Below are positions 4,403 through 19,019 of a DNA stretch of 64,000 nt, one piece after another. The position numbers and the translations under genes are program-made. How positions within the stretch are numbered: position 1 is the first letter of the stretch; each line of letters opens with the position of its first letter. Below the pieces are notes generated by a model, which saw only the letters and a list, made by a program, of their open reading frames with translations, did not search any database and was not told the DNA's origin. Origin of the DNA: an uncultured Alphaproteobacteria bacterium (lineage in GTDB: Bacteria; Pseudomonadota; Alphaproteobacteria; JALCBB01); NCBI GenBank assembly GCA_958267355.1, contig OY279575.1, positions 540,335 to 604,334 of the forward strand, in the 5' to 3' direction.

Positions 4403-5560
4403 ATGACTGCTTCTGCTTCCCCTCCTGATCCGTCTCTCTTGCTGGAAGACCCGCCCGAAGTTGCGCCTACGCTCAACGATGGAGCAGACACTCTAGCAGG
4501 TGAGGCAACGAGTCAGGCAACGAACCAAGACCCAGTTGCAAACGGCGTTGATATGACTCCGTCTTCGGACAAGTTCAACAGCATTGTTGCTCAGCTAAAA
4601 GCTGTACGCGCAGAAATCGGCAAGGTCATCTACGGACAAGAACAAGTCGTAGAACAAACCCTAACCGCTATTCTGGCGGGAGGCCATGCACTGCTTGTTG
4701 GCTATCCGGGGCTTGCCAAGACGCGTCTAGTAGAAACTTTAGCAAACACTTTGGGTTTATCTGAACGGCGAATTCAATGCACACCTGATTTAATGCCGGC
4801 TGACATTCTAGGCAGTGAAATACTAGACCAGGATGACTCGGGCAAACGTTCTTTCCGTTTCTTGGAAGGCCCTGTTTTTACACAGCTGCTTATGGCAGAC
4901 GAGATTAATCGGGCGAGTCCGCGCACGCAATCGGCTTTGTTGCAGGCAATGCAAGAACACCGCGTAACCGTGGCAGGACAAACCCGCCCCTTGCCGACTC
5001 CCTTTCACACGCTTGCGACTCAGAATCCGCTTGAACATGAAGGAACCTATCCCTTGCCTGAAGCCCAGCTAGACAGGTTTCTGTTGCAAGTAGATGTGCC
5101 GTATCCTGCTTTAGATGCCGAGCGCGAAGTCTTGCTACGGACAACGGGGGAAGAAATCCCTGAAGCGGCACAGGTGTTATCAAGTGGCGCACTGTTGGAA
5201 ATCCAAGCCTTGGTGCGGGCAATGCCAATCGGAGAAGAAGTTTTAGCGGCAATCTTGCGCTTGATCCGTGCGGCAAGACCTGCTGAAGAAGGCAATGCAG
5301 AAAACGCCAGCCATGCAGCGGCAATCGCCGAAATCACAGCGGAAATTGCTTGGGGTCCGGGTCCGCGAGCGGGGCAAGCTTTAGTCACGGCTTCTAAGGC
5401 TCGGGCTTTACTTAACGGGCGTTCTGCTCCGGGCATTCAGGACATAGCGGTCTTGGCGGTTCCTGTTTTGAGTCACCGTATGGCATTGCAGTTCCGTGCG
5501 CGTACTGAAGGCGTATCGTTAGCCGAGCGCATTCAAACCCTAGCGGAGTTGACTCTCTAA
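4403..5560 (+). CDS. MoxR-family AAA+ ATPase
   Basis: Walker A GYPGLAKT and MoxR/AAA_3-like core (LLVGYPGLAKTRLVETLANTLGL...FRFLEGPVF...ADEINRASPRTQSALLQAMQE). True start may be the internal ATG near 4550. Confidence 0.88.
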   Translation: MTASASPPDPSLLLEDPPEVAPTLNDGADTLAGEATSQATNQDPVANGVDMTPSSDKFNSIVAQLKAVRAEIGKVIYGQEQVVEQTLTAILAGGHALLVGYPGLAKTRLVETLANTLGLSERRIQCTPDLMPADILGSEILDQDDSGKRSFRFLEGPVFTQLLMADEINRASPRTQSALLQAMQEHRVTVAGQTRPLPTPFHTLATQNPLEHEGTYPLPEAQLDRFLLQVDVPYPALDAEREVLLRTTGEEIPEAAQVLSSGALLEIQALVRAMPIGEEVLAAILRLIRAARPAEEGNAENASHAAAIAEITAEIAWGPGPRAGQALVTASKARALLNGRSAPGIQDIAVLAVPVLSHRMALQFRARTEGVSLAERIQTLAELTL

Positions 5561-5563
5561 GCT

Positions 5564-6871
5564 GTGGCTCTGTTCTCCAAAAGTGCGGCGGATAAGTCTT
5601 CTTCGTGGAAGTTTAACGCGGCTACTCTCAAACGGGCACTGCGGGCTTCGGCGCAGAGGGAAGACTCAATTCACCGTCTTCTAATCGACGCGCAAACCTT
5701 GGCGGGTGGATTTCCGCCACTTAACTTGCATATTGCTGACCGTGCGAATGCTACGCTTGGCAGGCACGGCAGGCGGCGTTTCGGACACGGAAGTGATTTC
5801 TGGCAGTTCCGCAACTATGAATGGGGTGACTCGGTTTCAACGATTGATTGGCGGCAATCGGCGCGGTTTGACAGCTTGCAGGTGCGCGAGCGTGAGTGGC
5901 AAGCGCAGCGGGCATTGTACATATGGAGCGATCCGTCTCCGTCGTGTGATTGGTCTTCGGCGCGTCATTTGCCGACTAAGCGGCATCGGGCGCAGGAAAT
6001 TCTGTTAGCCCTAGCAATCCTAGCTTTGCGCGGAGGCGAGTCGGTTGCGGTACTGCGTAACAGTGCGCGTCTAAAATGGGGTGGAGATCTTGCGGCATCT
6101 TTGGCGCAGGAACTTTTTCAGGAGTCGGCAGATTGGTCAGCCCGTAGAGCGGGTAGAGCGCAGGGTGAGTTACAAGGTGAGTCACAGGGTGCATCACAGG
6201 GCTCGCTACAAGGTGAGTCGCAACAGGAGTCGTCTCGTGGTGCGAGTCCATTGCAGGGAGTGCAGGGGGCTGACAATTTGGAGTCGGCGGCGACGACTCT
6301 GCCTGACTTGCGAATTCCCGATGCGGCGAGCCATGTCATTTTGGCGGGAGATTTCTTAGACCCACCCGAGCCGCTTGTTCCCTACTTAAAAGCTGTATCA
6401 GCTCGTGGAGCTACAGGCACACTTGTGCAGGTGCTAGACCCTGCTGAATGGAATCTGCCGTGGCGTGGCGGAGCCATACTAGATGGAACCGAAGGCGAAA
6501 GCCCATGGAAAGTCCGCCGCTTAGAAGAAATTGCTTCTGCTTACGAAAAACGCCTTGCTGACAGTACTGATAGGCTTCGTGCGATTGCTCGTGGTTCGGG
6601 CTGGGGTTATTTGGCGCACAACACGGCGGATTCGTCTGCCAAGGCACTTTTAGCCTTGCATATTCGGCTTAACCAGCGGGCGGGGCAGGGAGCTACCCAG
6701 GGCTCAGGCGGCTCAGGAAGCTCTGAGAAGAGCCCTGAAGCCGATTCGCCGATGAATCCCACTCACACCACCGCGCCACCAGAAAGAGCCACCAGCGTGG
6801 CTCCTGTGGCTTCTCAGGCAAGCCAACGGACAAGCCCACCCAGTGTGGCTTCATCTACTGGCGCGAGATAG
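5564..6871 (+). CDS. DUF58 domain protein with low-complexity insertions
   Basis: DUF58 hallmark FRNYEWGDSVSTIDWRQSARFD. Contains an in-frame QGE(L/S)QG repeat and a Ser/Pro/Thr-rich C-terminal tail. Confidence 0.78.
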   Translation: MALFSKSAADKSSSWKFNAATLKRALRASAQREDSIHRLLIDAQTLAGGFPPLNLHIADRANATLGRHGRRRFGHGSDFWQFRNYEWGDSVSTIDWRQSARFDSLQVREREWQAQRALYIWSDPSPSCDWSSARHLPTKRHRAQEILLALAILALRGGESVAVLRNSARLKWGGDLAASLAQELFQESADWSARRAGRAQGELQGESQGASQGSLQGESQQESSRGASPLQGVQGADNLESAATTLPDLRIPDAASHVILAGDFLDPPEPLVPYLKAVSARGATGTLVQVLDPAEWNLPWRGGAILDGTEGESPWKVRRLEEIASAYEKRLADSTDRLRAIARGSGWGYLAHNTADSSAKALLALHIRLNQRAGQGATQGSGGSGSSEKSPEADSPMNPTHTTAPPERATSVAPVASQASQRTSPPSVASSTGAR

Positions 6872-6886
6872 GCGATAGCCTTAGCT

Positions 6887-9760
6887 ATGCCACTGGTTTT
6901 TGAATTTCCTTGGCTTCTGGCTGCTTTGGCGGGTTTGCCTGCTTTGTGGTGGCTTTTGCGGGTGATTCCTCCGCCTGTGCGGCGGCGTACCTTTCCAGCG
7001 GTGCGTTTGCTTTATGACTTACGGGATAGCGAAGACAAGCCGCATCGTATTCCGTGGTGGCTTTTGGCTTTGCGGCTTTTGGCGGCGGCGTTGTTGATCG
7101 TTGCTTTAGCGGGTCCGCGGTTTCAGCCTGAGCCTTTACTGAACGGCTCGGACAGCTTGCTTCTAGTGATAGACAATGGCTGGTCGGCGGCACCTGCTTG
7201 GGACAAGACCAAGAGCGAAGCGCGTACTATACTGCTTGCGGCTCGTCGTAAGGGTAGGGCGGTTCAGCTTTTGACGACTGCTCGTGATACGGAAGAAGCG
7301 GCAAGTGCGGTGGGGTTAGAAGTTTTGTCGGCAAATCAGGCTTTGTCGTTGTTGCGTGGCCTTGAGCCGCGGGGGTATCCAGCGGATTACGATTACGTGC
7401 TATCGCGTTTGGCGGCACATGGAGTCTCTCCAGACACGGATGAAGTTGTATTTTTTGCTGATGGTTTTGGTGGTGAGTTGGCGGCCAAGCTGACTCGCCA
7501 GCTTAGAGCGTATGGAAATTTCTCTGTGCGGTATGTTGCGCCACAGGATACGGCGCGTCTTTTGCTGGCTCCGACAATTCGTGCGGAAAATTTTTCTGTT
7601 CGTATTGCTGAGCTTTATGATGAAGCGGCGTTTGATAGGAGTCCACCGATCTTGCAGCTCCACGGACGTGATGGTGCGCTTCTTGCCAAGATTGAAAGCA
7701 AAGAAATCGGGCACGAAGATACGATTCGTTGGTATGAAGCTAGCACGCGCTTACCCCGTCGTTTATTGGACGACACTTCGCTTTTGTCTCTTAACGAGCT
7801 GTCGGCGGGAGCGGTACAACTTCTAGCGGACAGTGACAGGCGGCACCGCGTTCTTCTATGGGAGCAGAGTGCTACGGCGGTGGCGCGTCATCCGTTGCTA
7901 TCGTCGGAGCATTACTTAACGCAGGCGTTTTCGCTTTTTGCTGAAGTCCAGAGCGGCGGCTTGGAGCAGCTTTCTACATTTGCGCCTGACCTTGTTGTCC
8001 TAGACGGAGATATTATCCTCGGCTTGGACGAAACCGAAGCCTTAAACACATGGCTCAACGCGGGCGGAGTTCTACTGCGTTTTGCGGGGGAAGGGCTTTT
8101 GCGTGAGGGACGTGAATCGCGTCTTTTGCCTGTGCGTTTGCGTCCTGCGGTGCGGGCTTTGGGGGGTACTTTGTCGTGGGAGGAACCTGTGTCTATTCAC
8201 CCTCAGCCGCCTGAGACGAGTCCGCTGGCGGGGATAGAAGTTCCGCGTGATTTGCGTATTCGCCGAGCTGTTTTGGCGGAGCCTGGTCCTGACTTAGAAG
8301 AACGCACATGGCTGTGGTTGCAGGATGGCTCACCGTTTATCACGGCGGACATACGTGCAGAAGGGGTATTGATACTGGTGCATAGTGCGGCGAATGCTGA
8401 GTGGTCTAATTTGCCGATTTCGGGGTATTTTGTGCAGATGCTGCGCCGTTTGACCGAACTTGGACGAATTGCTACTGAAAGCACGATTACCGAGTCGGGC
8501 GGACTTGCTGAGCCTGCGTTATTGCTGGATGGTTTTGGTAGATTGCGTGCGTCTAGTAAGAGTCGTTTTCCTATTGCTGAAGCGATACGCCTTTCTGATT
8601 TGGAGCAGATTGTGCCGTCGGCGTATCATCCTGCGGGTTTTTATGGGATTGAAACGGGCAGGTTATCGATTAACCTTGGCGGAAGAATTCCGTTACCTGA
8701 AGCACTTGTCATCCCGCCTGGGGTTTCTGCGGCTCCACTTGGAGCGACTCGTTCTTTTGACCTCCGCCCTCTGCTGTACACCTTGCTTTTACTTCTGGTC
8801 CTTGTGGAGTTCTGGGCGGGCTTGTGGCTTCGTGGTCTTTTGACTTTTCGCCCGTTTGCGCCTGTGGCGAGTCGCCTACTCGGAGCCACGCGCAACAGAT
8901 TTGCGGGCAAGTTTGTGCTGAGTCTTGTGGCGATGTTTTTTCTGGTGGCGGTGTGCTTTAGCTATTCTCCGTACCCAGCCCGAGCGCAGAGTAGCCAGAA
9001 CAACCAGAACAACCTGCAAAGCAATTTTGCCACGGCAGGAGACATAGCCAGTGGCGCGAACATTCAAGAGCCACGAATGGTCTATGCGATTACAGGAGTC
9101 CGTGAAACTGACGAAGCGAGCTTTAAGGGTTTGCGGGCTTTGAACAACATAGTTATTGCGCGGACGAGCGTAACCTTGTCGGAACCGTTTGGTGTGCGTG
9201 TGGGCGTGGACGACATATCGCCCTATCCGCTACTGTACTGGCCGTATGACAAGTCTGCGTCTTTACCAACTGCGGAGTCATCGGCGGCATTGAGCGAATA
9301 CCTAGCGCGTGGAGGTATGGTCTTGGTTGATTTGCGGCAAGCCCCATTCTTGGATTCACTGAGCGAAACGGGTTCGGCATTTGATGCGGGATCACTGGCA
9401 TTTCTGCAGGCGCTACGGGCACCTGCTTTATCACAGATGCGCGAAGACTACGTGCTACGCCGAGCTTTTTACTTACTGGAAGGCACCCCTGGCCGTTACG
9501 ACAGCGAAACTTTCCTGCTATCGGCTCCTGACCCAGCGGCGGACAATGTTTCGTCATTTTTGCTAGGCACGAACGACTGGGCGGCGGCGTGGGCACTAGA
9601 CAGCCGAGGACAACCTGAATACGCCCTCATCCCAGGCGGAGAAGACCAACGCGAACTATCATACCGTTTCGGAGTCAACCTAGTCCTCCACGCTTTATCG
9701 GGCAGCTATAAAGCCGACCAAATCCACCTCCAAGCGATCATCGACCGCCTAAACCGCTAA
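6887..9760 (+). CDS. large membrane protein, BatA-like N-terminal double-TM domain and DUF4159-like C-terminus
   Basis: 957 aa. N-terminus FPWLLAALAGLPALWWLLRV...LLALRLLAAALLIVALAGP shows two TM helices, with another internal TM (LLYTLLLLLVLVEFWAGLWL). Sits directly downstream of MoxR and DUF58, the conserved operon position. Confidence 0.6.
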   Translation: MPLVFEFPWLLAALAGLPALWWLLRVIPPPVRRRTFPAVRLLYDLRDSEDKPHRIPWWLLALRLLAAALLIVALAGPRFQPEPLLNGSDSLLLVIDNGWSAAPAWDKTKSEARTILLAARRKGRAVQLLTTARDTEEAASAVGLEVLSANQALSLLRGLEPRGYPADYDYVLSRLAAHGVSPDTDEVVFFADGFGGELAAKLTRQLRAYGNFSVRYVAPQDTARLLLAPTIRAENFSVRIAELYDEAAFDRSPPILQLHGRDGALLAKIESKEIGHEDTIRWYEASTRLPRRLLDDTSLLSLNELSAGAVQLLADSDRRHRVLLWEQSATAVARHPLLSSEHYLTQAFSLFAEVQSGGLEQLSTFAPDLVVLDGDIILGLDETEALNTWLNAGGVLLRFAGEGLLREGRESRLLPVRLRPAVRALGGTLSWEEPVSIHPQPPETSPLAGIEVPRDLRIRRAVLAEPGPDLEERTWLWLQDGSPFITADIRAEGVLILVHSAANAEWSNLPISGYFVQMLRRLTELGRIATESTITESGGLAEPALLLDGFGRLRASSKSRFPIAEAIRLSDLEQIVPSAYHPAGFYGIETGRLSINLGGRIPLPEALVIPPGVSAAPLGATRSFDLRPLLYTLLLLLVLVEFWAGLWLRGLLTFRPFAPVASRLLGATRNRFAGKFVLSLVAMFFLVAVCFSYSPYPARAQSSQNNQNNLQSNFATAGDIASGANIQEPRMVYAITGVRETDEASFKGLRALNNIVIARTSVTLSEPFGVRVGVDDISPYPLLYWPYDKSASLPTAESSAALSEYLARGGMVLVDLRQAPFLDSLSETGSAFDAGSLAFLQALRAPALSQMREDYVLRRAFYLLEGTPGRYDSETFLLSAPDPAADNVSSFLLGTNDWAAAWALDSRGQPEYALIPGGEDQRELSYRFGVNLVLHALSGSYKADQIHLQAIIDRLNR

Positions 9761-9867: not shown

Positions 9868-9952
9868 GCGGCTGTGGCGGAACTGGTAGACGCGCAAGAT
9901 TCAGGTTCTTGTGGGAGCTAATCCCGTGGAGGTTCAAGTCCTCTCAGCCGCA
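9868..9952 (+). tRNA. tRNA-Leu (anticodon CAG)
   Basis: Acceptor stem GCGGCTG/CAGCCGC, anticodon loop tTCAGgt, long variable arm, T-arm GGTTCAAGTCC, discriminator A. Confidence 0.85.
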
Positions 9953-10441
9953 CACCCCTTGCGGGGCGGCGTCAATGCCAGCCCTTGTATTCCCCACCAA
10001 CTGTTAAGCCCCATAGTTTTAGTAACGGGTTAATTGAGCCAATACCCCTTTGCGGGGGGAGCGTGAGATTAGGGGGATTAACTGGCTCCCATTTTTGAGA
10101 CGAAGCCCTATAAAGGCTTAACCCACCAGTAAGACGAAGACGGGAGAAATAGCGGCTTGCCCTGCAGGGGGCGAAGCCCCCGCAGGGTTTGCGCGATTGA
10201 GCGCAAACCGCGGGAGATTAACCTTAATGGAACTGCCCACGCCGTAGCTCGTCCGAAGGTACCGCGAAAACGGAGTTTTCGCGGTACGCGCACGGCGAGA
10301 TGCGGCAAATAGCCCGCGCAAGCGGGCGGATTAAATGTTGCGAGAAAGCCCAACCCTAACCCCTTCTTTTTCGGATTAGGAATAAGGGTAATTAGAAGAC
10401 GGGCGAGATGCGGCAACTAGCCTGTATAGGTGCTTTGCGAT
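9953..10441. repeat. mosaic of dispersed repeat elements (left flank of island)
   Basis: Segments recur at 15250-15460 in direct orientation (e.g. ccccttgcggggggagcgtgagattagggggattaactggctccc) and at 14868-14940 in inverted orientation (tttgagacgaagccctataaaggcttaacccaccagtaagacgaagacggg). Confidence 0.8.
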
Positions 10442-11365
10442 CTATCTATCGCGGTTTCTTTTGTGGGCAAGAATGTTCAGCTTTTCTCGGTAGATTGCAA
10501 CAGAGTGATCTTTAAGAAACTTTTTTATCGTTTTTCCTTTTATAAAGATTGCAAGACGCCTTTCCCACGAAACCTTGTAGGTTAACTCTACTTCATCATA
10601 TCGGTTTGGCTTGCAGCTGGTTAAAAATCTTTCGTCTCCGACATGGAAGTAATCTTCAAAGTGGCCGAGATATTTCACAAACTTTCCGACAACAGGAACC
10701 AGCCCTAAGCAAAATTTTATTTTCTGCATCGTCTCCTTGCCAGGAGGTAACATCGTCACGCAATCAATTGCATTGACAACTCTGTAAATCGGCGTCTTGA
10801 TGGCGTACGACCAAGCTTCGTCTCCCACGCGTGGAGCTCCAAAGGTATAGCAAGCGGCAACGCCGCCTTGATGGTTTAATCTTTTTGCGGCGATCGTGGC
10901 TAAAGCTCCGCCTATGCCGTGTCCTGTTATCAATAGGGGCTTGTGGGCAAATGGCTCTTTGTTCAGGCTCGTTTGAATTGCGCTGGCAATTTGTTCGTAG
11001 GCTTCTTTAAAGCCAGCATGCACGCCGCCATTGGTTTCGCAGGAAACTTTGCGAGCGTTTGCTTCTGTTTTTATATCTTTGAAGCGTTTGGCTTTGTGTC
11101 CTTTGAATGCGAGTATTAGTAAGGTGTTGTTTGAAACGAGCAGGGCTTCGGTTCCGTTGGTATCGTATTTTTGTTCTACGGATAGTCCGATCTTTTCGAT
11201 TTCGGCATCTACTTCGTCAAAAGGCATGTAGGCAAGCTCGGACAGGTGCGCCATTAGCCAAGCGATGCGGTCGCTATATCCTTGCCGATAGGTTGGGAGC
11301 TGGTTGCTTTGGATATAATCCACCAGCAGGGCTTTTTTATCTTCGCTACTTGAAGGCTTGCTCAT
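10442..11365 (-). CDS. class-3 (fungal-type) lipase family protein
   Basis: Nucleophile-elbow pentapeptide GHGIG (in ITGHGIGGALA), Lipase_3-like context, AT-rich codon usage. Start at ATG 11365 (MSKPSSSEDKK). Confidence 0.75.
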   Translation of the reverse strand: MSKPSSSEDKKALLVDYIQSNQLPTYRQGYSDRIAWLMAHLSELAYMPFDEVDAEIEKIGLSVEQKYDTNGTEALLVSNNTLLILAFKGHKAKRFKDIKTEANARKVSCETNGGVHAGFKEAYEQIASAIQTSLNKEPFAHKPLLITGHGIGGALATIAAKRLNHQGGVAACYTFGAPRVGDEAWSYAIKTPIYRVVNAIDCVTMLPPGKETMQKIKFCLGLVPVVGKFVKYLGHFEDYFHVGDERFLTSCKPNRYDEVELTYKVSWERRLAIFIKGKTIKKFLKDHSVAIYREKLNILAHKRNRDR

Positions 11366-11461
11366 GGTTCTGACTTCCTTGAGACTTGTTCCGTGCGGAG
11401 TGCATTCTACCACAGCGTGAAGGCGTGGCAGTTGCAGGGGCGAAACGTGTCGGCTGTTCTT

Positions 11462-14260
11462 CTACCTGCGGGTTTTGAAGGGGATATAAAGCCCACCTGC
11501 TACGCCATGGGCGGTTTTGCCTCGCTCAATGGAGCCACAGCTAGAGCTTGCGTAGCAGACTTTGCCTCCTGCGAAGTGGGCGGCATAGCCCGACAGGGTG
11601 AAACGGGTGCCTTGAGCCGTGGAGAAGCCTAAAGCCGCCTGTACACCCCGCTCGGTGCCTGTGAGCGAGCGTAAAAGCGAGCCTGTGCCATGAACCGAAG
11701 CCTGTGTTTGCCAGGCGGTCAGGCTGACTTGCGACACGGGGCGTAGTGTGGCGGTGAAGCGCAGGTTTTCGCTACGGGCGAAGGAAAAGCCTTGGCTTCC
11801 CTGCGAGCCGAAGAAGCCATCGGAAGAAAAGCGTGTGGCGGCGACTTGCCAGCGGATTCCTGCGTGATGACCTGCAATAGCGGCTCCGCTTTCGCCTGTC
11901 TTCTCGGAGACCAAGCCGAGCCGTGTTTTGTCCTGCTTTGTGCCAGTGAGCGGCAGAAAAGCCCGCGCCGAAGGCGGAGTCGGCGCATACGCCACCTGTC
12001 CCTGCGGATTGTAGCCAAAGAAGCGGCTTTCGCCTTCGGGTGCAATTGCCAACTTGCCGTTGCTCTGGGCGGGTAGGGAGAGTCCGCCGAACTGCCGCCC
12101 ATAGAAAGCACTCAAAAAGCGAGTTGCGACTCCGCTTGCCCCCGCAGGAGCTGACCGAGTCGCCTTAGCCACTTCTTTTGCGGTTTCGTCTGCGGCACAC
12201 CACAAATCAAATCGCCCACGGCCTGTGTCTTTGTCTAGCCCGACGGCTCCGATATCCACGGAGCATTTATCAAAGATTGCCATAGCATCGCTGGCGGTGG
12301 CGGAAGCGGGCAGGTGTTCCCAGATCATGGTAAAGGCAGAAATGGCACCGCTAGAAGACGAGAAAGAAGTGCCGCCATGAAATTCGCTATTGTCTTTCGC
12401 GTTCATTAGCTTGTAGCGGTAGGGAAAGCCCACGCACCATTTTTCTACGCCTTCACAGCCGTTTGCCCTGTATCTTCCTCTATGGTCTTCTGTGAGTCCG
12501 TAGATGAATCGCACCCGCTCGCTTGTGTCGGCGATATACTTTTGGTTACGCATACCGCCTTGCATATAGGTATCGTCTTGGTCGGGAGAGTCTAGGTTAC
12601 TATTTCCTGTGCCTACGAAGATATAGGGGCCAGCGGGTTGGTTGGTGTTGGTGTTAAAAATATCTCCGAGCTGAATTCCGTGCTTTGAGAAGATGCGGGC
12701 AGTGGCAATGGAGACAACGCCATCGGTGGGTAACGCATTATAGAGTGGCGGTATGTTGTAGGTTGAAAAATTGCCGACTCTATACCGCCCACTGAGTCCG
12801 TCGTTTGCGTCTTTTGGCAGGAGTCGTTTTGCTAGGTTGGTGACTTGATATCCGTGGGTGGTTTTTGTCGCGGGGTTTGGAATGGGACTGTAATAGAAGT
12901 TTTGCCGAGAGATATCTTCGTGATCATGGAAGCTCACATTCAATCCGCCGTTATCCATAATGAAGATACCGCTACGCTTGGTGCGCTGTGCCTTTGTAAG
13001 CCCGTGGTCGCGGAAGACTTGAGCCAGACAGCTTTCTTCATTGCCGTTTAGGTTTTCGCCGATTTGGCAGGTAACGGTTTTGTATCCTTCGGTTCTTTCT
13101 GCGGCACACCAGAGGTCAAACCGCCCGCGGCCTGTGCTTTCGTCTAATCCTGTTGTGCCGAGATCTACGGCACAGCTATCAAAAATTGACATTGCATCGC
13201 TGGCGGTGGCGGAAGCGGGCAGGTGTTCCCAAATCATCGTAAAGGCGGTAAGGGCTCCGCTTGAGGTGGAGATAGAAGAGCCACCAAAAGTCCTTCCCTT
13301 GACCTTGTACTCATCAGGAAAGCCCACGCACCATTTTTCTACGCCCTTGCATCCGTTGGTTCTGGATCGTGCTGTTTGTGCTTGGTTGAGTCCATAGATG
13401 AAGCGCACCCTGTCGCTTCGCATGGCGACGAGTTCTTGATTGCGTATTCCGACTCCTGAGCGTGTGTAGCCGTTATCTTGGTCAGGAGTCATAACACTGC
13501 CATTATTTCCTGTCGGAGCAAAAATGTAAGGCCCCATAGCTTGTTTTGTGACGCTGTCAAAAACATCGGCGACTCCGATACCGCTTCGTTGGAAAAGCAA
13601 ACCATAGGCAATGGCAACTGCACCATTCGTGGGCAGGTTATTGTAAACCACTCGGAACTGGGCTGAAGATGGCGTAGAAGAAGTTATGTAATGCCCCTTG
13701 AAGCCTTTTGTGGCTGGGCTACGACTATCTTTAGGAAGCAACGCATCGGCAACTGTGGTGACTTGGTGTGCGTGAAGATTTGAAGCTGGATTGCTAACAA
13801 TTTGATCGCTGGTTTGAACATCCGTTTTAACACCAAGGAGCGTTTCCGTGTATGTATTTTGAGTGCCTTGACTTGGGTTTCCGCCATTGTCAACGAGGAA
13901 AATATTGTCGCGCTTGGTGCGTGTGAGTTTTCGCCCTTCGCGGAAAGTGCGCGTGAGGCAACTTTCTGTGCCTGTGTCTAAGTCTTGTCCGTTTTGACAA
14001 GCCAGGACTTGCGCCTGTGTAAGTGCCACAGGCGTGCCCACACCCGTGCCAGGCGTAGGAGGCGTAACCACAGGCGGGTCTTGTGGGTCAGGGTCAGGGT
14101 CTGGGTCTGGGTCAGGCTGGGTAACAGGCGCACCGCCACCACCACCGCCGCCACCGCCACCTCCACCACAGGCAACAAGCGGCACAGTAAGTAGCAAAGA
14201 AAGCAACAAGACAACAAAAACACAGAAACCCCGCACGGAAACAAGCCCCGCCCCACTCAT
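11462..14260 (-). CDS. lipoprotein with two tandem S8 (subtilase)-like domains and autotransporter-like C-terminal region
   Basis: Lipobox LVAC followed by a G12 tract and PDPDPDPDPDPQDP linker. Two ~275-aa tandem repeats each carry D (F[L/I][VM]DNGG), H (HAHQV / HGYQV) and S (GSSISTSSG / GTSFSSSSG) subtilase-like motifs. C-terminal ~250 aa show an alternating beta-strand pattern like an autotransporter beta domain. Confidence 0.6.
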   Translation of the reverse strand: MSGAGLVSVRGFCVFVVLLLSLLLTVPLVACGGGGGGGGGGGGAPVTQPDPDPDPDPDPQDPPVVTPPTPGTGVGTPVALTQAQVLACQNGQDLDTGTESCLTRTFREGRKLTRTKRDNIFLVDNGGNPSQGTQNTYTETLLGVKTDVQTSDQIVSNPASNLHAHQVTTVADALLPKDSRSPATKGFKGHYITSSTPSSAQFRVVYNNLPTNGAVAIAYGLLFQRSGIGVADVFDSVTKQAMGPYIFAPTGNNGSVMTPDQDNGYTRSGVGIRNQELVAMRSDRVRFIYGLNQAQTARSRTNGCKGVEKWCVGFPDEYKVKGRTFGGSSISTSSGALTAFTMIWEHLPASATASDAMSIFDSCAVDLGTTGLDESTGRGRFDLWCAAERTEGYKTVTCQIGENLNGNEESCLAQVFRDHGLTKAQRTKRSGIFIMDNGGLNVSFHDHEDISRQNFYYSPIPNPATKTTHGYQVTNLAKRLLPKDANDGLSGRYRVGNFSTYNIPPLYNALPTDGVVSIATARIFSKHGIQLGDIFNTNTNQPAGPYIFVGTGNSNLDSPDQDDTYMQGGMRNQKYIADTSERVRFIYGLTEDHRGRYRANGCEGVEKWCVGFPYRYKLMNAKDNSEFHGGTSFSSSSGAISAFTMIWEHLPASATASDAMAIFDKCSVDIGAVGLDKDTGRGRFDLWCAADETAKEVAKATRSAPAGASGVATRFLSAFYGRQFGGLSLPAQSNGKLAIAPEGESRFFGYNPQGQVAYAPTPPSARAFLPLTGTKQDKTRLGLVSEKTGESGAAIAGHHAGIRWQVAATRFSSDGFFGSQGSQGFSFARSENLRFTATLRPVSQVSLTAWQTQASVHGTGSLLRSLTGTERGVQAALGFSTAQGTRFTLSGYAAHFAGGKVCYASSSCGSIERGKTAHGVAGGLYIPFKTRR

Positions 14261-14481
14261 CCAGCGATTGCCTTCTAGTTGCACGGATTATCCTCCACCA
14301 CCAACCCAATAATAGCCCATCCTACACCCCCACAGAACAAGCCTGTAATAATCGCAAGCAAACCCAAAGTGGGTTATATTAAGTCCCAGCGGAGGCATTA
14401 GCCAACGTTAATGCGGTGACGCACACCGCCACTTCGTGGTGGCGCACGTCGCCGCTCAGCGGTGGCTGACGCCACCGCTTC

Positions 14482-14567
14482 GCGGTTGTGGCGGAATGGT
14501 AGACGCGCAGCGTTGAGGGCGCTGTGGAGGCAACTCCGTGGAGGTTCAAGTCCTCTCAACCGCACCA
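14482..14567 (+). tRNA. tRNA-Leu (anticodon GAG)
   Basis: Acceptor GCGGTTG/CAACCGC, anticodon loop tTGAGgg, long variable arm, T-arm GGTTCAAGTCC, encoded CCA. Confidence 0.85.
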
Positions 14568-15706
14568 TTGTTACGGCGGCTTGCGCCGCCTTTGGGCGCA
14601 TCTGGCTTGCTATCCGCGTCCTACGGACGCGATACGCAAGACCACCTGCGCCTGTGGGCAGTTCCACCACCCTTGTTCTTCACGGGCGTTTCACGCCCTA
14701 CTTAAACAAACGGGCTTCACAAACTTCATACTTACCGTTCGGCCCGCTGGCTAAAACGCCAGCGGGCACTTTGGCGTGTTGTTACATCCGCTCGCGTTCG
14801 TGCCCTACGGGCACTCGGTGGCTAAAGCCGCCACTTCGTGGTGGGTCTTCATCTCTAAAGTCGGGAAAGGGCAAGCCGCTATTTCCCCGTCTTCGTCTTA
14901 CTGGTGGGTTAAGCCTTTATAGGGCTTCATCTCAAAGTTAATCTGTGCCTTCCCCATCTTTACAGTACCCTGATTTCTAAGCCGCAGAAAAATGGGTAAG
15001 TGTTGGGCTTTCTCGCAACATTTTTTACGCACGCTTGCGCGGGCTTTGGGCGCATCTGGCTTGCTATCCGCGTCCTACGGACGCGATACGCAAGACCACC
15101 TGCGCCTGTGGGCAGTTCCACCACCCTTGTTCTTCACGGGCGTTTCACGCCCTACTTAACTGACGGGCTTCACAAGCTTCACACATACCGTATGTCCCGC
15201 TGGCTAAAACGCCAGCGGGACACTTGGCAGTGCGGCATTCGTGCCAGCCCTTGTTTCCCCCACCAGCTGTTAAGCCCCATAGTTTTAGTGACGGGTTAAT
15301 TGAGCCGATACCCCTTGCGGGGGGAGCGTGAGATTAGGGGGATTAACTGGCTCCCGTTATGGAGATGAAGACGGGAGAAGTAGCGGCTTGCCCCTTTGCG
15401 GGGGGAGCGTGAGATTAGTGGGATTAACTGGCTCCCGTTATGGAGATGAAGACCCACCGAGCACCCGTAGGGTGCGAACGCGAGCGTAGCGGAGTGAAAC
15501 GAGCGGAGCGAAGCGGACACCGCGTAGCGGCGGCTTTAGCCACCGCGAAGCATCTTGCGCGTAGCGCAAGGCTTCGCGGCACTAGGCGGCGTAAGCCGCC
15601 GTAACTTAAACAGTGAGAGAAAGTCCGCCCCTAACCCCTTTTTCTGCGGCTCAGAAATCAGGGTAGTAAGAAGACAGGAGGATAACGGCTTACTCGCGGG
15701 TTAGAT
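14568..15706. repeat. repeat-rich non-coding region (right flank of island), direct and inverted repeat mosaic
   Basis: A ~117-bp perfect direct repeat at 14589-14705 and 15044-15160, extending with mismatches to about 200 bp. Inverted copies of 9953-10441 elements. Palindromic pairs at 14795-14860 versus 15455-15500. Six-frame ORFs here are not protein-like. Confidence 0.8.
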
Positions 15707-16321
15707 TCAAGCAGTCTTGCGGACATAAGCGCGGGAGCGGTGTTCAGGGCAGTAGGGACTGTCTTCAGTCGCTGGCGATCCGCAAAAGTGAAAATCAGGA
15801 GTCTTCGGAGTACCCATCGGCCATTGACACGGCCTGCCACCAGTCCGCACAACAGGCACCTGCTCCGCACCAGACTTCTTCGCCACAGAAGCACTAGAAG
15901 CACCACCAGAAGCACCACCAGAAACCCGCGGACGAAACGCCGCCACTTCCTGACCACCCTTGCCACCAGTGCCACCAGCACCACCAGCTCCAGCCTTAGC
16001 CTTCGCGCCACTCGCACCACCACGAGCATTACGTAAGCTCTGCTCCGCTTCTTGAGCGCGAAGCGAAACCCATTCCTCGCCCGCCGCCCTAGCGTTGCTG
16101 CCATGGGAATCACCCCCACGCCTGCTAGGAGGACTCAAAGCCACTCCAGCCCCAGCACTGCCCCCCGTGTTGCCAGGCACAGCCCGCGCCAAGCCCAAAC
16201 GATGCGCCTTGCCAATCACCGCATTCTTGCTATATCCCAAACGCTCGCCAATCTGGCTCGTGGTCAAACCACTGCCCCAGAGCTCCTTGAGTTCAGAAAC
16301 TTTTTCTTCAGTCCAAGCCAT
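15707..16321 (-). CDS. gcrA: cell-cycle transcriptional regulator GcrA
   Basis: N-terminus MAWTEEKVSELKELWGSGLTTSQIGERLG, Gly/Ala-rich linker, C-terminus CQWPMG...FHFCG...YCPEHR. Start at ATG 16321. Confidence 0.88.
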   Translation of the reverse strand: MAWTEEKVSELKELWGSGLTTSQIGERLGYSKNAVIGKAHRLGLARAVPGNTGGSAGAGVALSPPSRRGGDSHGSNARAAGEEWVSLRAQEAEQSLRNARGGASGAKAKAGAGGAGGTGGKGGQEVAAFRPRVSGGASGGASSASVAKKSGAEQVPVVRTGGRPCQWPMGTPKTPDFHFCGSPATEDSPYCPEHRSRAYVRKTA

Positions 16322-16613: not shown

Positions 16614-17930
16614 CTAAGAAATCCGCCGCGAACCCTCGCGCACAAGCTTTTCCAACGCCTCACGCAAGCCAGAAGCAGGAAAACCCTTCAAAATCATATC
16701 CGCTTCAGCCAATAAGCCACTCGCCTCCCCACGAACCATATCACCCACCCCATGCCGCACCAGCAAAGCTTGAGCTAGCTTTAAATTGTCCTTCATAGAC
16801 GCTGTATTGCTCCGTGAAGGCGATTCGTTTGATTCAGGGTGTTGTGGTGCATCTTCGCCACTTTGCTCGCCCACAGCGGCTTTCTGGAAGGCTTTGTGAG
16901 TGGCTTTCTGGATGGCTTTATGGGGGGCTTTGTGAGTGGCTTTCTGGTGGGCTTCGTGAGTGGCTTTATGGGTAGCTTTGTGAGCGGCTTTCTGACCTTC
17001 GCCTGATTGCTCGCCTTCATCGCTTCGCTCACCCCCGCTGGCTCGCCCAATCGCCACAGAATCCGCCAACACAGGGCTATTTCCCTGATTGCTCTCCTCC
17101 ACCAGAACCCGATGCCAAAAAGCCCGCTCAGAATCATCTCCCGCCTGCCACGCAAGCCACACAGGCAAAGTCATCCGCCCATCACGCAAGTCATCGCCCG
17201 CCGCCTTGCCCGTAACCGCACTTCCGCCTTCGTAATCAAGCAAATCATCCACCATCTGGAAGGCAAGCCCAATCGCTTGCCCAAATTCCGCCATCGCCGC
17301 CCGCTTGCTACCCACAGGCGGCTCAGCCAAGTTTTCAGGCTCCACCAAACAAGCCCCCGCTTCACAAGCCGCCGAGAATAAAGCCGCAGTCTTACCCTCC
17401 ATCACGGCAATGATTTCAGCCCGCGTCAGGTCGGTGCGGCGGGTTGTCCGTAGCCCCAGCATCTCACCTTCAGACACAGTAATCGCCGCCCGCGCCAAAA
17501 CCTGCAACGCCGACGGACAGCCAACTTCAACAATCAAACCAAATGCCCGTCCAAGCAAAAAATCACCCGTCAAAACACTCGCCTTGTTGCCCCAGACAAC
17601 ATTGGCGGCAGGCTGTCCGCGGCGGAGCGCACCCAGATCCACCACATCATCGTGCAGTAAAGTCGCAGAGTGCATAAGCTCCACAGCCGCCGCCAGCTTG
17701 TGCGCCTTAGGTAGCTCGTCAGGCGGAGTCCCACACAAGTGCGCCGCCGCACAAGTCAGCAACGGACGTAACCGCTTGCCCTCCGCGTCTAGCAGGTGTC
17801 CCGCAATTTCAGACACCAGCGGCACATGCGAAGCTACCTGCTGGCGCAAAATGTCAGCCACGGCTTCAGTATCAGGGGCAAGCCGCTCGGCAAGTCCTGC
17901 GGTGTTGCGGATTGTTTGCGGGTTCTGCAT
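16614..17930 (-). CDS. ispB: polyprenyl diphosphate synthase (IspB-like) with in-frame repeat insertion
   Basis: First aspartate-rich motif LLHDDVVD, second DDxxD motif FQMVDDLLD, and the substrate-binding Lys-Arg-Leu-Arg motif EGKRLRP. About 90-aa low-complexity insertion (HKATHKATHEAHQKATHKAPHK...) encoded by tandem ~30-bp repeats at 16880-17000. Confidence 0.82.
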   Translation of the reverse strand: MQNPQTIRNTAGLAERLAPDTEAVADILRQQVASHVPLVSEIAGHLLDAEGKRLRPLLTCAAAHLCGTPPDELPKAHKLAAAVELMHSATLLHDDVVDLGALRRGQPAANVVWGNKASVLTGDFLLGRAFGLIVEVGCPSALQVLARAAITVSEGEMLGLRTTRRTDLTRAEIIAVMEGKTAALFSAACEAGACLVEPENLAEPPVGSKRAAMAEFGQAIGLAFQMVDDLLDYEGGSAVTGKAAGDDLRDGRMTLPVWLAWQAGDDSERAFWHRVLVEESNQGNSPVLADSVAIGRASGGERSDEGEQSGEGQKAAHKATHKATHEAHQKATHKAPHKAIQKATHKAFQKAAVGEQSGEDAPQHPESNESPSRSNTASMKDNLKLAQALLVRHGVGDMVRGEASGLLAEADMILKGFPASGLREALEKLVREGSRRIS

Positions 17931-18092: not shown

Positions 18093-19019
18093 GTGGCAGA
18101 AGTCGCCAAGCCAGTAGGCACCTTTCAGGAGATGATCTTCCGCCTAGAGCAATTCTGGGCAGGGCACGGCTGTGTGGTCTTGCGTGGCTACGACAAAGAA
18201 ATGGGGGCAGGGACTTTTCATCCCGCAACTGCGCTTTATGCTTTGGGGCCGTACAATCCGTGGCGTTGTGCTTATGTTCAGCCGTCTCGCCGTCCGACCG
18301 ATGGGCGGTATGGAGAAAATCCGCATCGCCTACAACGCTACTATCAGTTTCAGGTCTTGCTAAAGCCCGCTCCTGAAGACTCGCGAGAGCTTTACGAAGC
18401 AAGCCTAGCGTATCTTGGCTTAGATAAACGCCGCCACGATTTTCAATACGCCGAAGACGATTGGGAGAGTCCAACTCTGGGGGCTACAGGGCTTGGCTGG
18501 GAAGTCCGTTGCGATGGGCTAGAAATCACCCAGTTCACCTACTTTCAAAAGATGGGCGGGATTGAATGTAATCCGCCATCGGTAGAGCTTACCTACGGAC
18601 TAGAGCGTATCGCCAGCATTGTGCAAGAACGCGATAGCGTTTATGACCTAGCGTGGAACAAAGACTTCACCTATGGCGAAGTTCATCACCAAGTGGAAAT
18701 AGACTTCAGCAAGTACAACTTTGAACAGGCTGACCTAGAAGCCTTACGCCACGACTTTGACCAAGCCGAAGCCAGCGTCAAGCAGATGCTAGACAGGTTT
18801 GACTCAGCCGAAGCCGAATTCGCCGAAGTGCTAAGGGGTGAAGCTGTGCTAGCGGCTTACGACAAGTGCCTTGAAGCTTCGCATCTGTTTAATCTTCTTG
18901 ACGCACGGGGCGCGATATCTCCACAGGTAAGGCAGGAGATGATCTTGCGCGTGCGCAAGCTTGTCACGCGGGTTTGCCAAGCCTGGAAGGGTCAAGTAGG
19001 AGCACAAGACAATGGCTGA
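18093..19019 (+). CDS. glyQ: glycine--tRNA ligase alpha subunit
   Basis: [18 protein letters not shown]...[21 protein letters not shown]...YYQFQV, conserved across the protein. Confidence 0.95.
   Translation: [308 protein letters not shown]

What the first reader, a model, noticed from the sequence alone, without database searches (positions are those of the whole stretch)
9868..14567. Accessory island bracketed by two different tRNA-Leu genes
The lipase and the duplicated S8-like autotransporter lipoprotein are the only genes between tRNA-Leu(CAG) and tRNA-Leu(GAG), which both lie on the + strand. The lipase is distinctly AT-rich against a ~60% GC background. Both flanks are packed with dispersed repeat elements in inverted orientation. 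tRNA loci are classic integration and recombination hotspots. This looks like a horizontally acquired secreted-hydrolase cassette inserted into core chromosome, although I see no integrase.
Basis: partly seen in the sequence, partly recalled or inferred. Interest (0 to 1): 0.7.

Follow-up and report, generated by a model that had tools for sequence, protein, structure and literature searches.

The report
Recombination-built accessory locus between tRNA-Leu genes
Two accessory genes (a probably inactive lipase homologue and a surface protease-like autotransporter) lie between two leucine tRNA genes that are direct neighbours in related bacteria, but the two genes arrived separately, probably by recombination at the tRNA genes and their hairpin-rich flanks, so this is an ordinary kind of variable region and not a mobile island.

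Summary
tRNA-Leu(CAG) 9868-9953 and tRNA-Leu(GAG) 14482-14567 bracket exactly two genes. One is a class-3 lipase homologue. The other is a 940-aa lipoprotein with two subtilase-like domains and a C-terminal beta-barrel. Both tRNA 3' flanks are hairpin-repeat blocks.

In two outgroup genomes the two tRNA genes lie 40 nt apart directly after the DUF4159 gene, so the DNA between them here was added. It is not one cassette, though, and there is no integrase or att scar.

In sister species from the same metagenome the two genes are unlinked:
- The lipase stays beside tRNA-Leu(CAG). It is old (saturated dS, shared 45-aa deletion). In this species its nucleophile Ser is Gly, and it has no signal peptide.
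- The autotransporter gene sits at three different loci. It is far too similar between two species (dS 0.2 against 0.5-1.6 for core genes), which indicates recent exchange.

Strains of one species differ by a breakpoint and by swapped tRNA 3' flanks inside the repeats.

Best reading: an accessory locus built by recombination at tRNA-Leu paralogues and their structured-repeat flanks. It is ordinary in kind. The clade-specific, covarying 126-178-nt elements are the only possibly new item.

The parts
6887..9760 (+). BatA/DUF4159 gene, last gene of the deeply conserved cca-DUF1285-moxR-DUF58-DUF4159 block; forms the left core flank
   Evidence: Pfam hits. The block is conserved in up to 80 of 93 loci.
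9868..9953 (+). tRNA-Leu(CAG); CCA is not encoded
   Evidence: It is orthologous by its body sequence to the CAG gene of the outgroups. The 3' end sequence is shown.
9954..10441 (.). Hairpin-repeat block in the 3' flank of tRNA-Leu(CAG); its modules recur, direct and inverted, in 14568-15706
10150..10327 (+). E-type structured element, about 178 nt with 6-7 helices
   Evidence: Conserved at about 84% in species B and C. Consensus fold. Covariance-model score 201 bits. Covariation statistics. MFE z-score -6.6.
10442..11365 (-). Class-3 lipase homologue, 307 aa (the ORF extends to 11413 from a GTG); it has GHGIGG in place of GHSLGG and no signal peptide
   Evidence: Pfam PF01764. Exact protein P0003. 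Alignment A8. dS and aa identity. Codon usage.
11462..14284 (-). 940-aa lipoprotein-type, subtilase-like autotransporter with a tandemly duplicated passenger domain
   Evidence: Its dS against species B is 0.205.
14168..14284 (-). Signal peptide with lipobox (…TVPLVAC), followed by a Gly run and a Pro-Asp linker
   Evidence: Read from the translation. The N-terminus varies between strains.
13088..14008 (-). Subtilase-like domain, repeat 1 (aa 93-399)
   Evidence: HMM domain mapping. Repeat pairs D1/D3.
12170..13078 (-). Subtilase-like domain, repeat 2 (aa 403-705); carries the GTS motif
11498..12127 (-). Conserved C-terminal domain (aa 720-929), predicted outer-membrane beta-barrel preceded by helices
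14285..14481 (.). Spacer between the 940-aa gene and tRNA-Leu(GAG); includes 23-nt tandem hairpin repeats at 14414-14488
   Evidence: Repeat D6; hairpin scan.
14482..14567 (+). tRNA-Leu(GAG); CCA is encoded
14568..15706 (.). Hairpin-repeat block between tRNA-Leu(GAG) and gcrA; contains the strain-level rearrangement breakpoint
14575..14700 (-). A-type structured element (126 nt). Its 3' GNRA hairpin lies 8 nt from the tRNA 3' end, in convergent orientation
   Evidence: Covariance-model score 49 bits. Flank sequence. Fold.
15029..15154 (-). Second A-type structured element, part of direct repeat D2
15707..16321 (-). gcrA, the right neighbour in this strain only
   Evidence: Pfam GcrA. In strain L001 a methyltransferase-HNH gene cluster occupies this position.

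Best explanation
The segment is a composite accessory locus, not a discrete mobile island. The genome is a small (1.86 Mb, 53% GC) alphaproteobacterial chromosome from a HiFi metagenome that also holds several sister species.

Shown:
- The ancestral layout was DUF4159, then tRNA-Leu(GAG), 40 nt, then tRNA-Leu(CAG).
- In this clade the pair has been split.
- The 3' flanks of at least three tRNA-Leu isoacceptor genes have filled with a clade-specific family of structured hairpin elements.
- Gene order around them differs between species, and even between strains that are 97-98% identical.
- The two genes between the tRNAs have separate histories.

The lipase homologue has been fixed beside tRNA-Leu(CAG) since before species A and B split. 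It looks foreign by its relatives and codon usage. In species A it has lost its nucleophile serine, so it is probably no longer a hydrolase.

The 940-aa gene encodes a lipidated, subtilase-like type Va autotransporter with a duplicated passenger. It was recently exchanged between species A and B and sits at a different locus in each of three species. Species A is the likely recipient.

Inferred mechanism: homologous or illegitimate recombination within the shared 28-nt 3' ends of the tRNA-Leu paralogues and among the repeated structured elements. This recombination swaps flanks, inverts or translocates neighbouring DNA, and lets DNA from co-resident relatives be captured, all without an integrase.
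For: Ancestral state:
- Two outgroups have the tandem GAG-CAG pair directly after DUF4159: L008/L009 (DUF4159 55% aa identity) and L094/L095 (52%).
- The tRNA bodies are orthologous by anticodon.

The two genes are unlinked in sister species:
- In species B (L003, L011) the order is DUF4159-CAG-lipase-trpE, with no 940-aa gene.
- In L002 the 950-aa homologue lies between a His/Phe/Leu(TAG) tRNA cluster and cdd-acs.
- In species C, L005 has trpE, a 644-aa single-domain homologue, then acs, and L012 has DUF4159-CAG-proline racemase.

Divergence:
- The 940-aa gene has dS 0.205 between A and B (0.13-0.34 by region).
- Seven core genes between A and B have dS 0.53-1.55, and clpX of the same genome pair as L002 has 0.99.
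- Within species A, dS is 0.03-0.06.
- The B and C homologues have dS 1.79, matching acs at 1.76.
- Nucleotide identity collapses at the gene ends.

Lipase:
- A and B share 60% aa identity, pS is 0.77 (saturated), and both lack about 45 aa present in all other relatives.
- The motif reads GHGIGG against GHSLGG in 11 of 11 relatives.
- Named relatives are Gammaproteobacteria, Bacteroidota, Desulfobacterota and Kiritimatiellae.
- Codon bias B is 0.50 against 0.29-0.37 for genes of similar length.

Recombination:
- Strain L001 (97-98% identical) has the same island, but a methyltransferase-HNH cluster and clpX follow tRNA-Leu(GAG) instead of gcrA.
- In L001 the CAG gene carries the 3' flank that follows GAG in the window. 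In B the same flank type follows CAG in L003 and GAG in L002.
- The tRNA 3' ends match at 27 of 28 nt.
- The repeat block differs by about 690 nt between two species-B contigs, and the E element is flipped between A and B.

No integrase or att:
-.
Against: - The tRNA order (CAG then GAG) is the reverse of both outgroups. This needs extra steps, such as duplication and loss within the tandem pair, which I did not reconstruct.
- Only about 20-kb snapshots of the related genomes were available. Enrichment of the repeats at breakpoints genome-wide is therefore not shown, and the recombination mechanism is inferred from flank swaps and breakpoints, not observed.
- L002 and L003 were not proven to come from one genome. 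Only an equal distance from A was shown.
- The direction of transfer (B-like lineage to A) rests on one shared neighbour (acs) in B and C.
- The low dS of the 940-aa gene could in principle reflect repeated gene conversion rather than a single acquisition.
- How a gene-sized segment without shared flanks was integrated is unexplained.
Confidence: 0.65

Rival explanations
1. Classical tRNA-targeted genomic island. On this view a single cassette (lipase plus autotransporter) was integrated by a tyrosine integrase at a tRNA-Leu gene, and the integrase was later lost.
For: - The accessory genes are bracketed by tRNA-Leu genes whose 3' ends form a 27/28-nt direct repeat.
- The tRNA genes are adjacent in the outgroups.
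- The lipase is compositionally atypical.
- In strain L001 a methyltransferase-HNH cluster with phage-like hits lies next to tRNA-Leu(GAG), which shows that this site does take up foreign DNA.
Against: - No integrase, excisionase or transposase hit was found in or beside the segment.
- There is no partial tRNA copy; both ends are complete and different tRNA genes.
- The two genes are unlinked in species B and C.
- Their divergence differs by a large factor: dS 0.2 against saturated.
- The 940-aa gene has a host-like composition.
Confidence: 0.07
2. Purely vertical history. On this view both genes are old residents of the clade, brought together by chromosomal rearrangement alone. The high A/B similarity of the 940-aa gene would then come from interspecies gene conversion or unusual constraint, not from acquisition.
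For: - Homologues of the 940-aa gene exist in all three species, A, B and C.
- Its GC, GC3 and codon usage are typical of the window.
- The lipase is a positional orthologue in A and B with a shared deletion.
- Rearrangement is clearly frequent here.
Against: - Synonymous divergence 3-7 times below all eight core genes, across the whole 2.8-kb gene, cannot be explained by constraint. Gene conversion between species is itself horizontal exchange.
- The lipase has no alphaproteobacterial relatives among the named hits.
- The lipase is absent from the site in species C and in both outgroups.
- The wider 940-aa family is patchy and includes several paralogues in a Betaproteobacteria MAG.
Confidence: 0.2
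3. Assembly artefact. On this view the juxtaposition of the two tRNA genes, the repeats and the genes comes from a chimeric metagenome contig.
For: The region is repeat-rich, and the sample contains several closely related strains.
Against: The same arrangement is found on contigs from two assemblers and in three strain-level variants with 94-98% identity. These are hifiasm ptg000096c, hifiasm-meta s103.ptg000112c, s104.ptg000113c and a 29-kb contig.
Confidence: 0.02

Closest known systems
tRNA-associated genomic islands and islets, such as integrase-borne islands at tRNA-Leu or tRNA-Ser genes, and regions of genomic plasticity next to tRNA genes (from general knowledge)
   Same: Accessory genes lie next to tRNA genes. 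Their content varies between strains and species. At least one gene was recently exchanged horizontally.
   Different: There is no integrase and no att duplication. The segment is bounded by two complete, different tRNA-Leu genes that are tandem neighbours in the outgroups. The two genes have separate histories. The changes look like homologous or illegitimate recombination at tRNA paralogues and repeats.
Subtilase (S8) type Va autotransporters: Ssp of Serratia marcescens (PDB 8E7F), and the lipidated NalP of Neisseria meningitidis and SphB1 of Bordetella pertussis (PMC9977779)
   Different: The protein itself has no Pfam S8 hit. The passenger is duplicated in tandem, with 1-6 copies across the family. 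The C-terminal domain is short, about 205-235 aa. No beta-helical stalk is evident. The family is uncharacterised and found only in metagenomes.
Class-3 lipases (Pfam PF01764), the roughly 350-aa 'lipase family protein' group of marine Gammaproteobacteria, Bacteroidota and others
   Same: There is a clear family match at 47-57% identity in alignment A8. The Asp and His positions are conserved.
   Different: The nucleophile Ser of GHSLGG is Gly here, and FRGTE reads FKGHK. About 45 aa present in other relatives are missing from both species A and B. There is no signal peptide.
REP/BIME clusters and MITE-like palindromic repeats, such as the E. coli BIMEs, Neisseria Correia elements and Rickettsia palindromic elements (from general knowledge)
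   Same: These are GC-rich hairpin modules in intergenic DNA, in both orientations. Their copy number varies between strains, and they are associated with rearrangement.
   Different: The E/A elements are larger multi-helix units with compensatory changes. Their copy number is low: in 64 kb they occur only at this locus. They tend to abut tRNA-Leu 3' ends at 8 nt. No terminal inverted repeats or target duplications were recognised. There is no Rfam match.

Membership tests
Integrase-mediated tRNA-targeted genomic island | A tyrosine or serine integrase (or a remnant) at one end | tested here: not met
   No integrase or transposase family was found in Pfam, NCBIfam or PHROGs for the ORFs in and beside 9868-15706. 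The flanks are non-coding hairpin repeats.
Integrase-mediated tRNA-targeted genomic island | att direct repeat, meaning a partial copy of the tRNA 3' end at the distal boundary | tested here: not met
   The 28-nt 3' end matches only the two complete tRNA genes, and the 5' half matches only itself.
Integrase-mediated tRNA-targeted genomic island | Present or absent as one unit among relatives | tested here: not met
   The lipase and the 940-aa gene are unlinked in species B and C. Their dS values are 0.2 and saturated, respectively.
Integrase-mediated tRNA-targeted genomic island | Composition distinct from the host | tested here: inconclusive
   Lipase: GC 45.8% but GC3 typical, and codon bias is the highest among genes of at least 250 codons. 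The 940-aa gene is typical. Three core genes deviate more in GC3.
Class-3 lipase (PF01764) | Sequence match to the family | tested here: met
   Pfam Lipase_3 at 2.6e-21, 76 bits against a cut-off of 22.
Class-3 lipase (PF01764) | GXSXG nucleophile serine | tested here: not met
   The motif reads GHGIGG, where 11 of 11 aligned relatives, including the species-B orthologue, have GHSLGG. The same protein sequence is found on at least two contigs.
Class-3 lipase (PF01764) | Catalytic Asp and His | tested here: met
   D201 and H287 are invariant columns in alignment A8. Their assignment as catalytic residues is by position only.
Subtilase (S8) type Va autotransporter (Ssp, NalP, SphB1) | S8 subtilase catalytic domain | tested here: met
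   - The protein itself has no Pfam hit.
- Family member P0252 passes the Peptidase_S8 threshold.
- The family profile hits subtilases 1v6c and 8e7f, aligning GTS and the TG.G motif.
Subtilase (S8) type Va autotransporter (Ssp, NalP, SphB1) | Intact Asp-His-Ser triad | tested here: inconclusive
   Motifs consistent with D (F[IL][MV]DNGG), H (THGYQV / LHAHQV), N (TGN) and S (GTS / GSS) are present in both repeats. Only the Ser and Asn regions aligned significantly. Several family members lack the Ser.
Subtilase (S8) type Va autotransporter (Ssp, NalP, SphB1) | C-terminal 12-stranded beta-barrel translocator with a preceding helix | tested here: inconclusive
   - The confident beta-rich C-terminus follows helices 292-330 of the model.
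- The strand number was not verified.
- The domain is shorter than canonical.
- The terminal residues are ...IPFKTRR, whereas most relatives end in F.
Subtilase (S8) type Va autotransporter (Ssp, NalP, SphB1) | Lipoprotein signal, as in NalP and SphB1 | tested here: met
   A hydrophobic stretch is followed by LVAC and then a Gly run. Lipoboxes are conserved in P0001, P0002 and several family members. Lipidation itself cannot be tested here.
Known RNA families (Rfam 15) | Covariance-model match for the flank elements | tested here: not met
   Only the two tRNAs were found, at gathering threshold and at E up to 5.
REP/BIME or MITE | Many copies dispersed over the genome; terminal inverted repeats and target-site duplications (for MITEs) | tested here: inconclusive
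   In 64 kb the elements occur only at this locus. No terminal inverted repeats were recognised by eye. Whole genomes were not available. No REP-associated (RAYT) transposase was looked for outside the window.

The most novel reading that the evidence does not exclude
The E-type (about 178 nt) and A-type (about 126 nt) elements could be a new, clade-specific family of structured RNA or single-strand-DNA elements. On this reading they home to, or are co-inherited with, the 3' flank of tRNA-Leu genes. Their terminal GNRA hairpin lies 8 nt from the tRNA end, in convergent orientation, at three different isoacceptor genes. They would act as the recombination substrates that shuffle neighbouring genes and let co-resident sister species exchange surface-protein genes such as the subtilase-like autotransporter.
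Probability: 0.25. Interest if true: 0.6.

Novelty: new member of a known kind. Interest (0 to 1): 0.35.

Why it matters
The main result is a correction. A tRNA-bracketed pair of 'hydrolase' genes that looks like a textbook island is in fact two unrelated acquisitions, joined by recombination. One gene is a probable pseudoenzyme. The GC dip that drew attention is an amino-acid effect.

It also gives a clean small case of gene flow between sister species that share one habitat. A surface autotransporter has synonymous divergence several-fold below the core genome.

It also shows tRNA paralogues exchanging their 3' flanks between strains.

If the structured flank elements prove to be functional or mobile, they would be a handle on how small, integrase-poor genomes still rearrange and exchange genes.

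Tried and rejected
- AlphaFold on the whole 940-aa protein with a 3-sequence alignment failed (pLDDT 27.6). It worked only after I built a 15-sequence alignment from remote homologues.
- The canonical S8 lipoprotein next to DUF4159 in outgroup L008 is not a detectable relative of the 940-aa family by BLASTP or family HMMs.
- I tested whether ORF 52582-53877 is the DUF502 gene that follows the tRNA pair in L008. It is not.
- Rfam found nothing in the flanks except the tRNAs.
- A 23-nt core of the E element has no match in JGI metagenomes. A looser E/A motif gave 7 matches, none confirmed by the covariance model.
- The genome-contig scan with a DUF4159 profile returned only distant relatives (38% identity or less), no member of the clade. 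Taxonomy therefore stays at 'Alphaproteobacteria, Rhodospirillales-like'.
- A literature search for the sample and MAG accessions found nothing.
- No anticodon switch explains the swapped tRNA order, because the tRNA bodies follow their anticodons.
- I did not reconstruct the full order of rearrangements. Several scenarios fit the roughly 20-kb snapshots.
Full report
**1. What is in the sequence**

ARAGORN and Rfam agree on two tRNA genes in the 64 kb. These are tRNA-Leu(CAG) at 9868-9953 and tRNA-Leu(GAG) at 14482-14567, both on the + strand. Two minus-strand genes lie between them.
- ORF 10442-11365 (307 aa from the ATG) hits Pfam Lipase_3 at 2.6e-21.
- ORF 11462-14284 (940 aa) has no Pfam hit. 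It has a lipobox (…LVAC followed by a Gly run) and two copies of a domain of about 300 aa.

The left neighbour is a BatA/DUF4159 gene at 6887-9760. The right neighbour is gcrA at 15707-16321.

The non-coding flanks 9954-10441 and 14568-15706 share modules in both direct and inverted orientation. They hold 23 of the window's 66 perfect GC-rich hairpins. Their sequences recur nowhere else in the window. The window is 53.0% GC, not about 60%.

**2. Composition**

The lipase gene is 45.8% GC, but its GC3 is 48.4%, against a gene mean of 50.8 +/- 5.9. The dip therefore comes from codon positions 1 and 2. The 940-aa gene is typical (54.2% GC, GC3 53.8%). Three core genes (cca, glyS and ORF 52582-53877) have far lower GC3, at 34-39%.

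A codon-usage distance normalised for amino acids does single out the lipase. Its B value is 0.50, against 0.29-0.37 for genes of about 300 codons. The 940-aa gene is ordinary at 0.31.

**3. Source and relatives**

The window is part of a 1,859,045-bp circular contig, hifiasm ptg000096c, of ENA analysis ERZ19433661. The same sample holds the following relatives.
- Other strains of the same species (A): L001, L006 and L007, 94-98% identical to the window.
- Species B: L003, L004 and L011, with DUF4159 86% aa identical.
- L002, a locus from a genome equally distant from A.
- Species C: L012 (DUF4159 81% identical), and probably L005.
- One outgroup, L094/L095 (DUF4159 52% identical).

A second outgroup, L008/L009 (DUF4159 55% identical), comes from another sample and from an NCBI alphaproteobacterial MAG.

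Synonymous divergence gives about 1.0 for A-B, and about 2.4-2.8 for A-C and B-C. C is therefore the outgroup of A and B.

**4.

In both outgroups the order is DUF4159, tRNA-Leu(GAG), 40 nt, tRNA-Leu(CAG), with nothing between the tRNA genes. The tRNA bodies are orthologous by anticodon, so the order in the window (CAG then GAG) is swapped and not relabelled.

The upstream block cca-DUF1285-moxR-DUF58-DUF4159 is conserved in the 80 more distant alphaproteobacterial loci. In the 60 of them scanned for tRNAs, no tRNA-Leu lies within 8 kb of DUF4159. None of the 80 has a lipase, a 940-aa gene or gcrA there.

The DNA between the tRNA genes is therefore added DNA. DUF4159 and gcrA are not an interrupted ancestral pair.

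**5. The two genes are not one cassette**

- Species B has DUF4159-CAG-lipase-trpE, without the 940-aa gene.
- The 950-aa homologue in L002 lies between a tRNA-His/Phe/Leu(TAG) cluster and cdd-acs.
- In species C a single-domain 644-aa homologue lies between trpE and acs.
- Also in species C, DUF4159-CAG is followed by a proline racemase gene.

Divergence separates the two genes as well. The 940-aa gene has dS 0.205 between A and B. By region this is 0.13-0.14 in the two passenger repeats and 0.34 in the C-terminal domain.

For comparison, seven core genes between A and B give 0.53-1.55. clpX of the very genome pair that includes L002 gives 0.99, and strains within A give 0.03-0.06. Identity collapses at the gene ends.

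The B and C homologues differ by dS 1.79, like acs at 1.76, and both lie on the acs side. The B position therefore looks older, and A is the likely recipient. This direction is an inference.

The lipase is different. A and B share only 60% aa identity, with saturated synonymous sites (pS 0.77). Both lack about 45 aa that are present in all other relatives. This argues for a single origin before the A/B split.

**6. What the genes encode**

The lipase homologue has no signal peptide. It reads GHGIGG where all 11 aligned relatives, including the species-B orthologue, have GHSLGG, and FKGHK where they have FRGTE. It has lost the nucleophile and is probably not a hydrolase. Its named relatives are all outside the Alphaproteobacteria.

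The 940-aa protein is not an orphan.
- A profile search found 43 proteins at E below 1e-10. They carry 1-6 tandem copies of the 300-aa domain and a conserved C-terminal domain of about 205 aa.
- One family member passes the Pfam Peptidase_S8 threshold.
- The family profile hits subtilases 1v6c and 8e7f in PDB, aligned across the GTS serine motif.
- The Serratia subtilase autotransporter Ssp is the best Foldseek hit for that model (E 3.7e-7).

With its lipobox the protein resembles the lipidated subtilase autotransporters NalP and SphB1 (PMC9977779). The tandem duplication of the passenger is the unusual feature. Some family members occur as several paralogues in a Betaproteobacteria MAG.

**7. 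The flanks and the mechanism**

No ORF in or next to the segment matches an integrase or transposase. There is no partial tRNA copy that could serve as an att site. The 28-nt tRNA 3' end occurs only in the two complete genes, at 27 of 28 identical positions.

What the flanks do contain is a family of structured elements.
- The E type (window 10150-10327) is about 84% identical between species whose neutral sites are saturated.
- A covariance model built from the E copies also finds a shorter A type at 14575-14700 and 15029-15154 on the minus strand.
- Across nine distinct copies, 95% of cells pair, and 23 of 60 pairs show changes on both sides. The slid controls give 2-3 such pairs, and 0 of 500 shuffles reach the observed value. 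The caveat is that the alignment was fitted to the model.
- MFE z-scores run from -4.6 to -8.5.
- The elements are absent from Rfam, from JGI metagenomes and from the outgroups.

Several observations point to recombination at this locus.
- The repeat block differs by about 690 nt between two species-B contigs.
- The E element is flipped between A and B within the same intergenic region.
- In strain L001 tRNA-Leu(GAG) is followed by a methyltransferase-HNH cluster and clpX instead of gcrA. The breakpoint lies inside the repeats.
- In L001 tRNA-Leu(CAG) carries exactly the 3' flank (CCA-TTGTTAC-hairpin…) that follows tRNA-Leu(GAG) in the window.
- In species B one flank type follows CAG in L003 and GAG in L002.

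These flank swaps show recombination within the shared tRNA-Leu 3' ends. That such recombination also captured the 940-aa gene is inferred, not shown.

**8. Verdict**

The finding is real and its interpretation is partly right. The DNA is accessory, it lies between tRNA genes that were once adjacent, and it carries at least one recently transferred gene. It is not an integrase-type island, and it is not a two-gene secreted-hydrolase cassette.

It is a recombination-built variable locus of a familiar kind. The clade-specific structured elements at the tRNA-Leu flanks are the only component that might be new. Their function was not established here.

Noticed in passing
window 2212-3558 (cca), 19012-21186 (glyS), 52582-53877 (ORF of unknown function): Three genes, two of them core housekeeping genes, have GC3 of 34-39% against a window mean of 51%. 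glyS falls to 35-40% GC over about 1 kb. They are compositionally more deviant than the 'island' genes.
   Followed up: partly
window 9940-9960 and 14555-14575: tRNA-Leu(CAG) does not encode its CCA end (…GCCGC-A-CAC…), whereas tRNA-Leu(GAG) does. In strain L001 the CAG gene has acquired the CCA-encoding end together with the GAG-type flank.
   Followed up: partly
L006:5357-6668: In one strain of the same species the cca gene is called as two pieces (185 and 240 aa). This is either a frameshift or pseudogene, or an assembly error. It matters because tRNA-Leu(CAG) needs CCA addition.
   Followed up: no
L006:14761-17793: The 940-aa gene has a 1010-aa allele in strain L006, with the N-terminal signal-peptide and lipobox region present twice. 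The Gly and Pro-Asp linker also varies in length between strains.
   Followed up: no
L001:1289-5956: Strain L001 carries a strain-specific cluster next to tRNA-Leu(GAG). It consists of an N6/N4 DNA methyltransferase fused to an HNH nuclease, a protein with a weak DUF4062 and PHROG match, and two ORFs of unknown function. It may be a defence or mobile module.
   Followed up: partly
L008:6092-9421: The outgroup has a canonical Peptidase_S8 protein of 1109 aa immediately upstream of its DUF4159 gene. It has a lipobox and a C-terminal …RLRF. Its architecture is analogous to the 940-aa protein, but no family-level similarity was detectable.
   Followed up: yes
window 10046-10107, 15311-15372, 15392-15453: A 62-nt repeat (CCCYTTGCGGGGGGAGCGTGAGATTAG…) is present three times at 90-100% identity. 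It is a further module of the flank repeats and was not analysed for structure.
   Followed up: no
window 16614-17930 (polyprenyl synthetase) and 5564-6871 (DUF58): Both core proteins carry low-complexity inserts: HKATHKAT… in one, and QGESQGASQG… in the other. Their lengths differ between strains, 438 against 430 aa and 435 against 439 aa.
   Followed up: no
L005:167-1253 and L012:2590-3931, 5275-5739: In the species-C contigs several core genes are split or truncated (pyrG, cytochrome b, coproporphyrinogen oxidase). This could be gene decay or low-coverage assembly errors.
   Followed up: no
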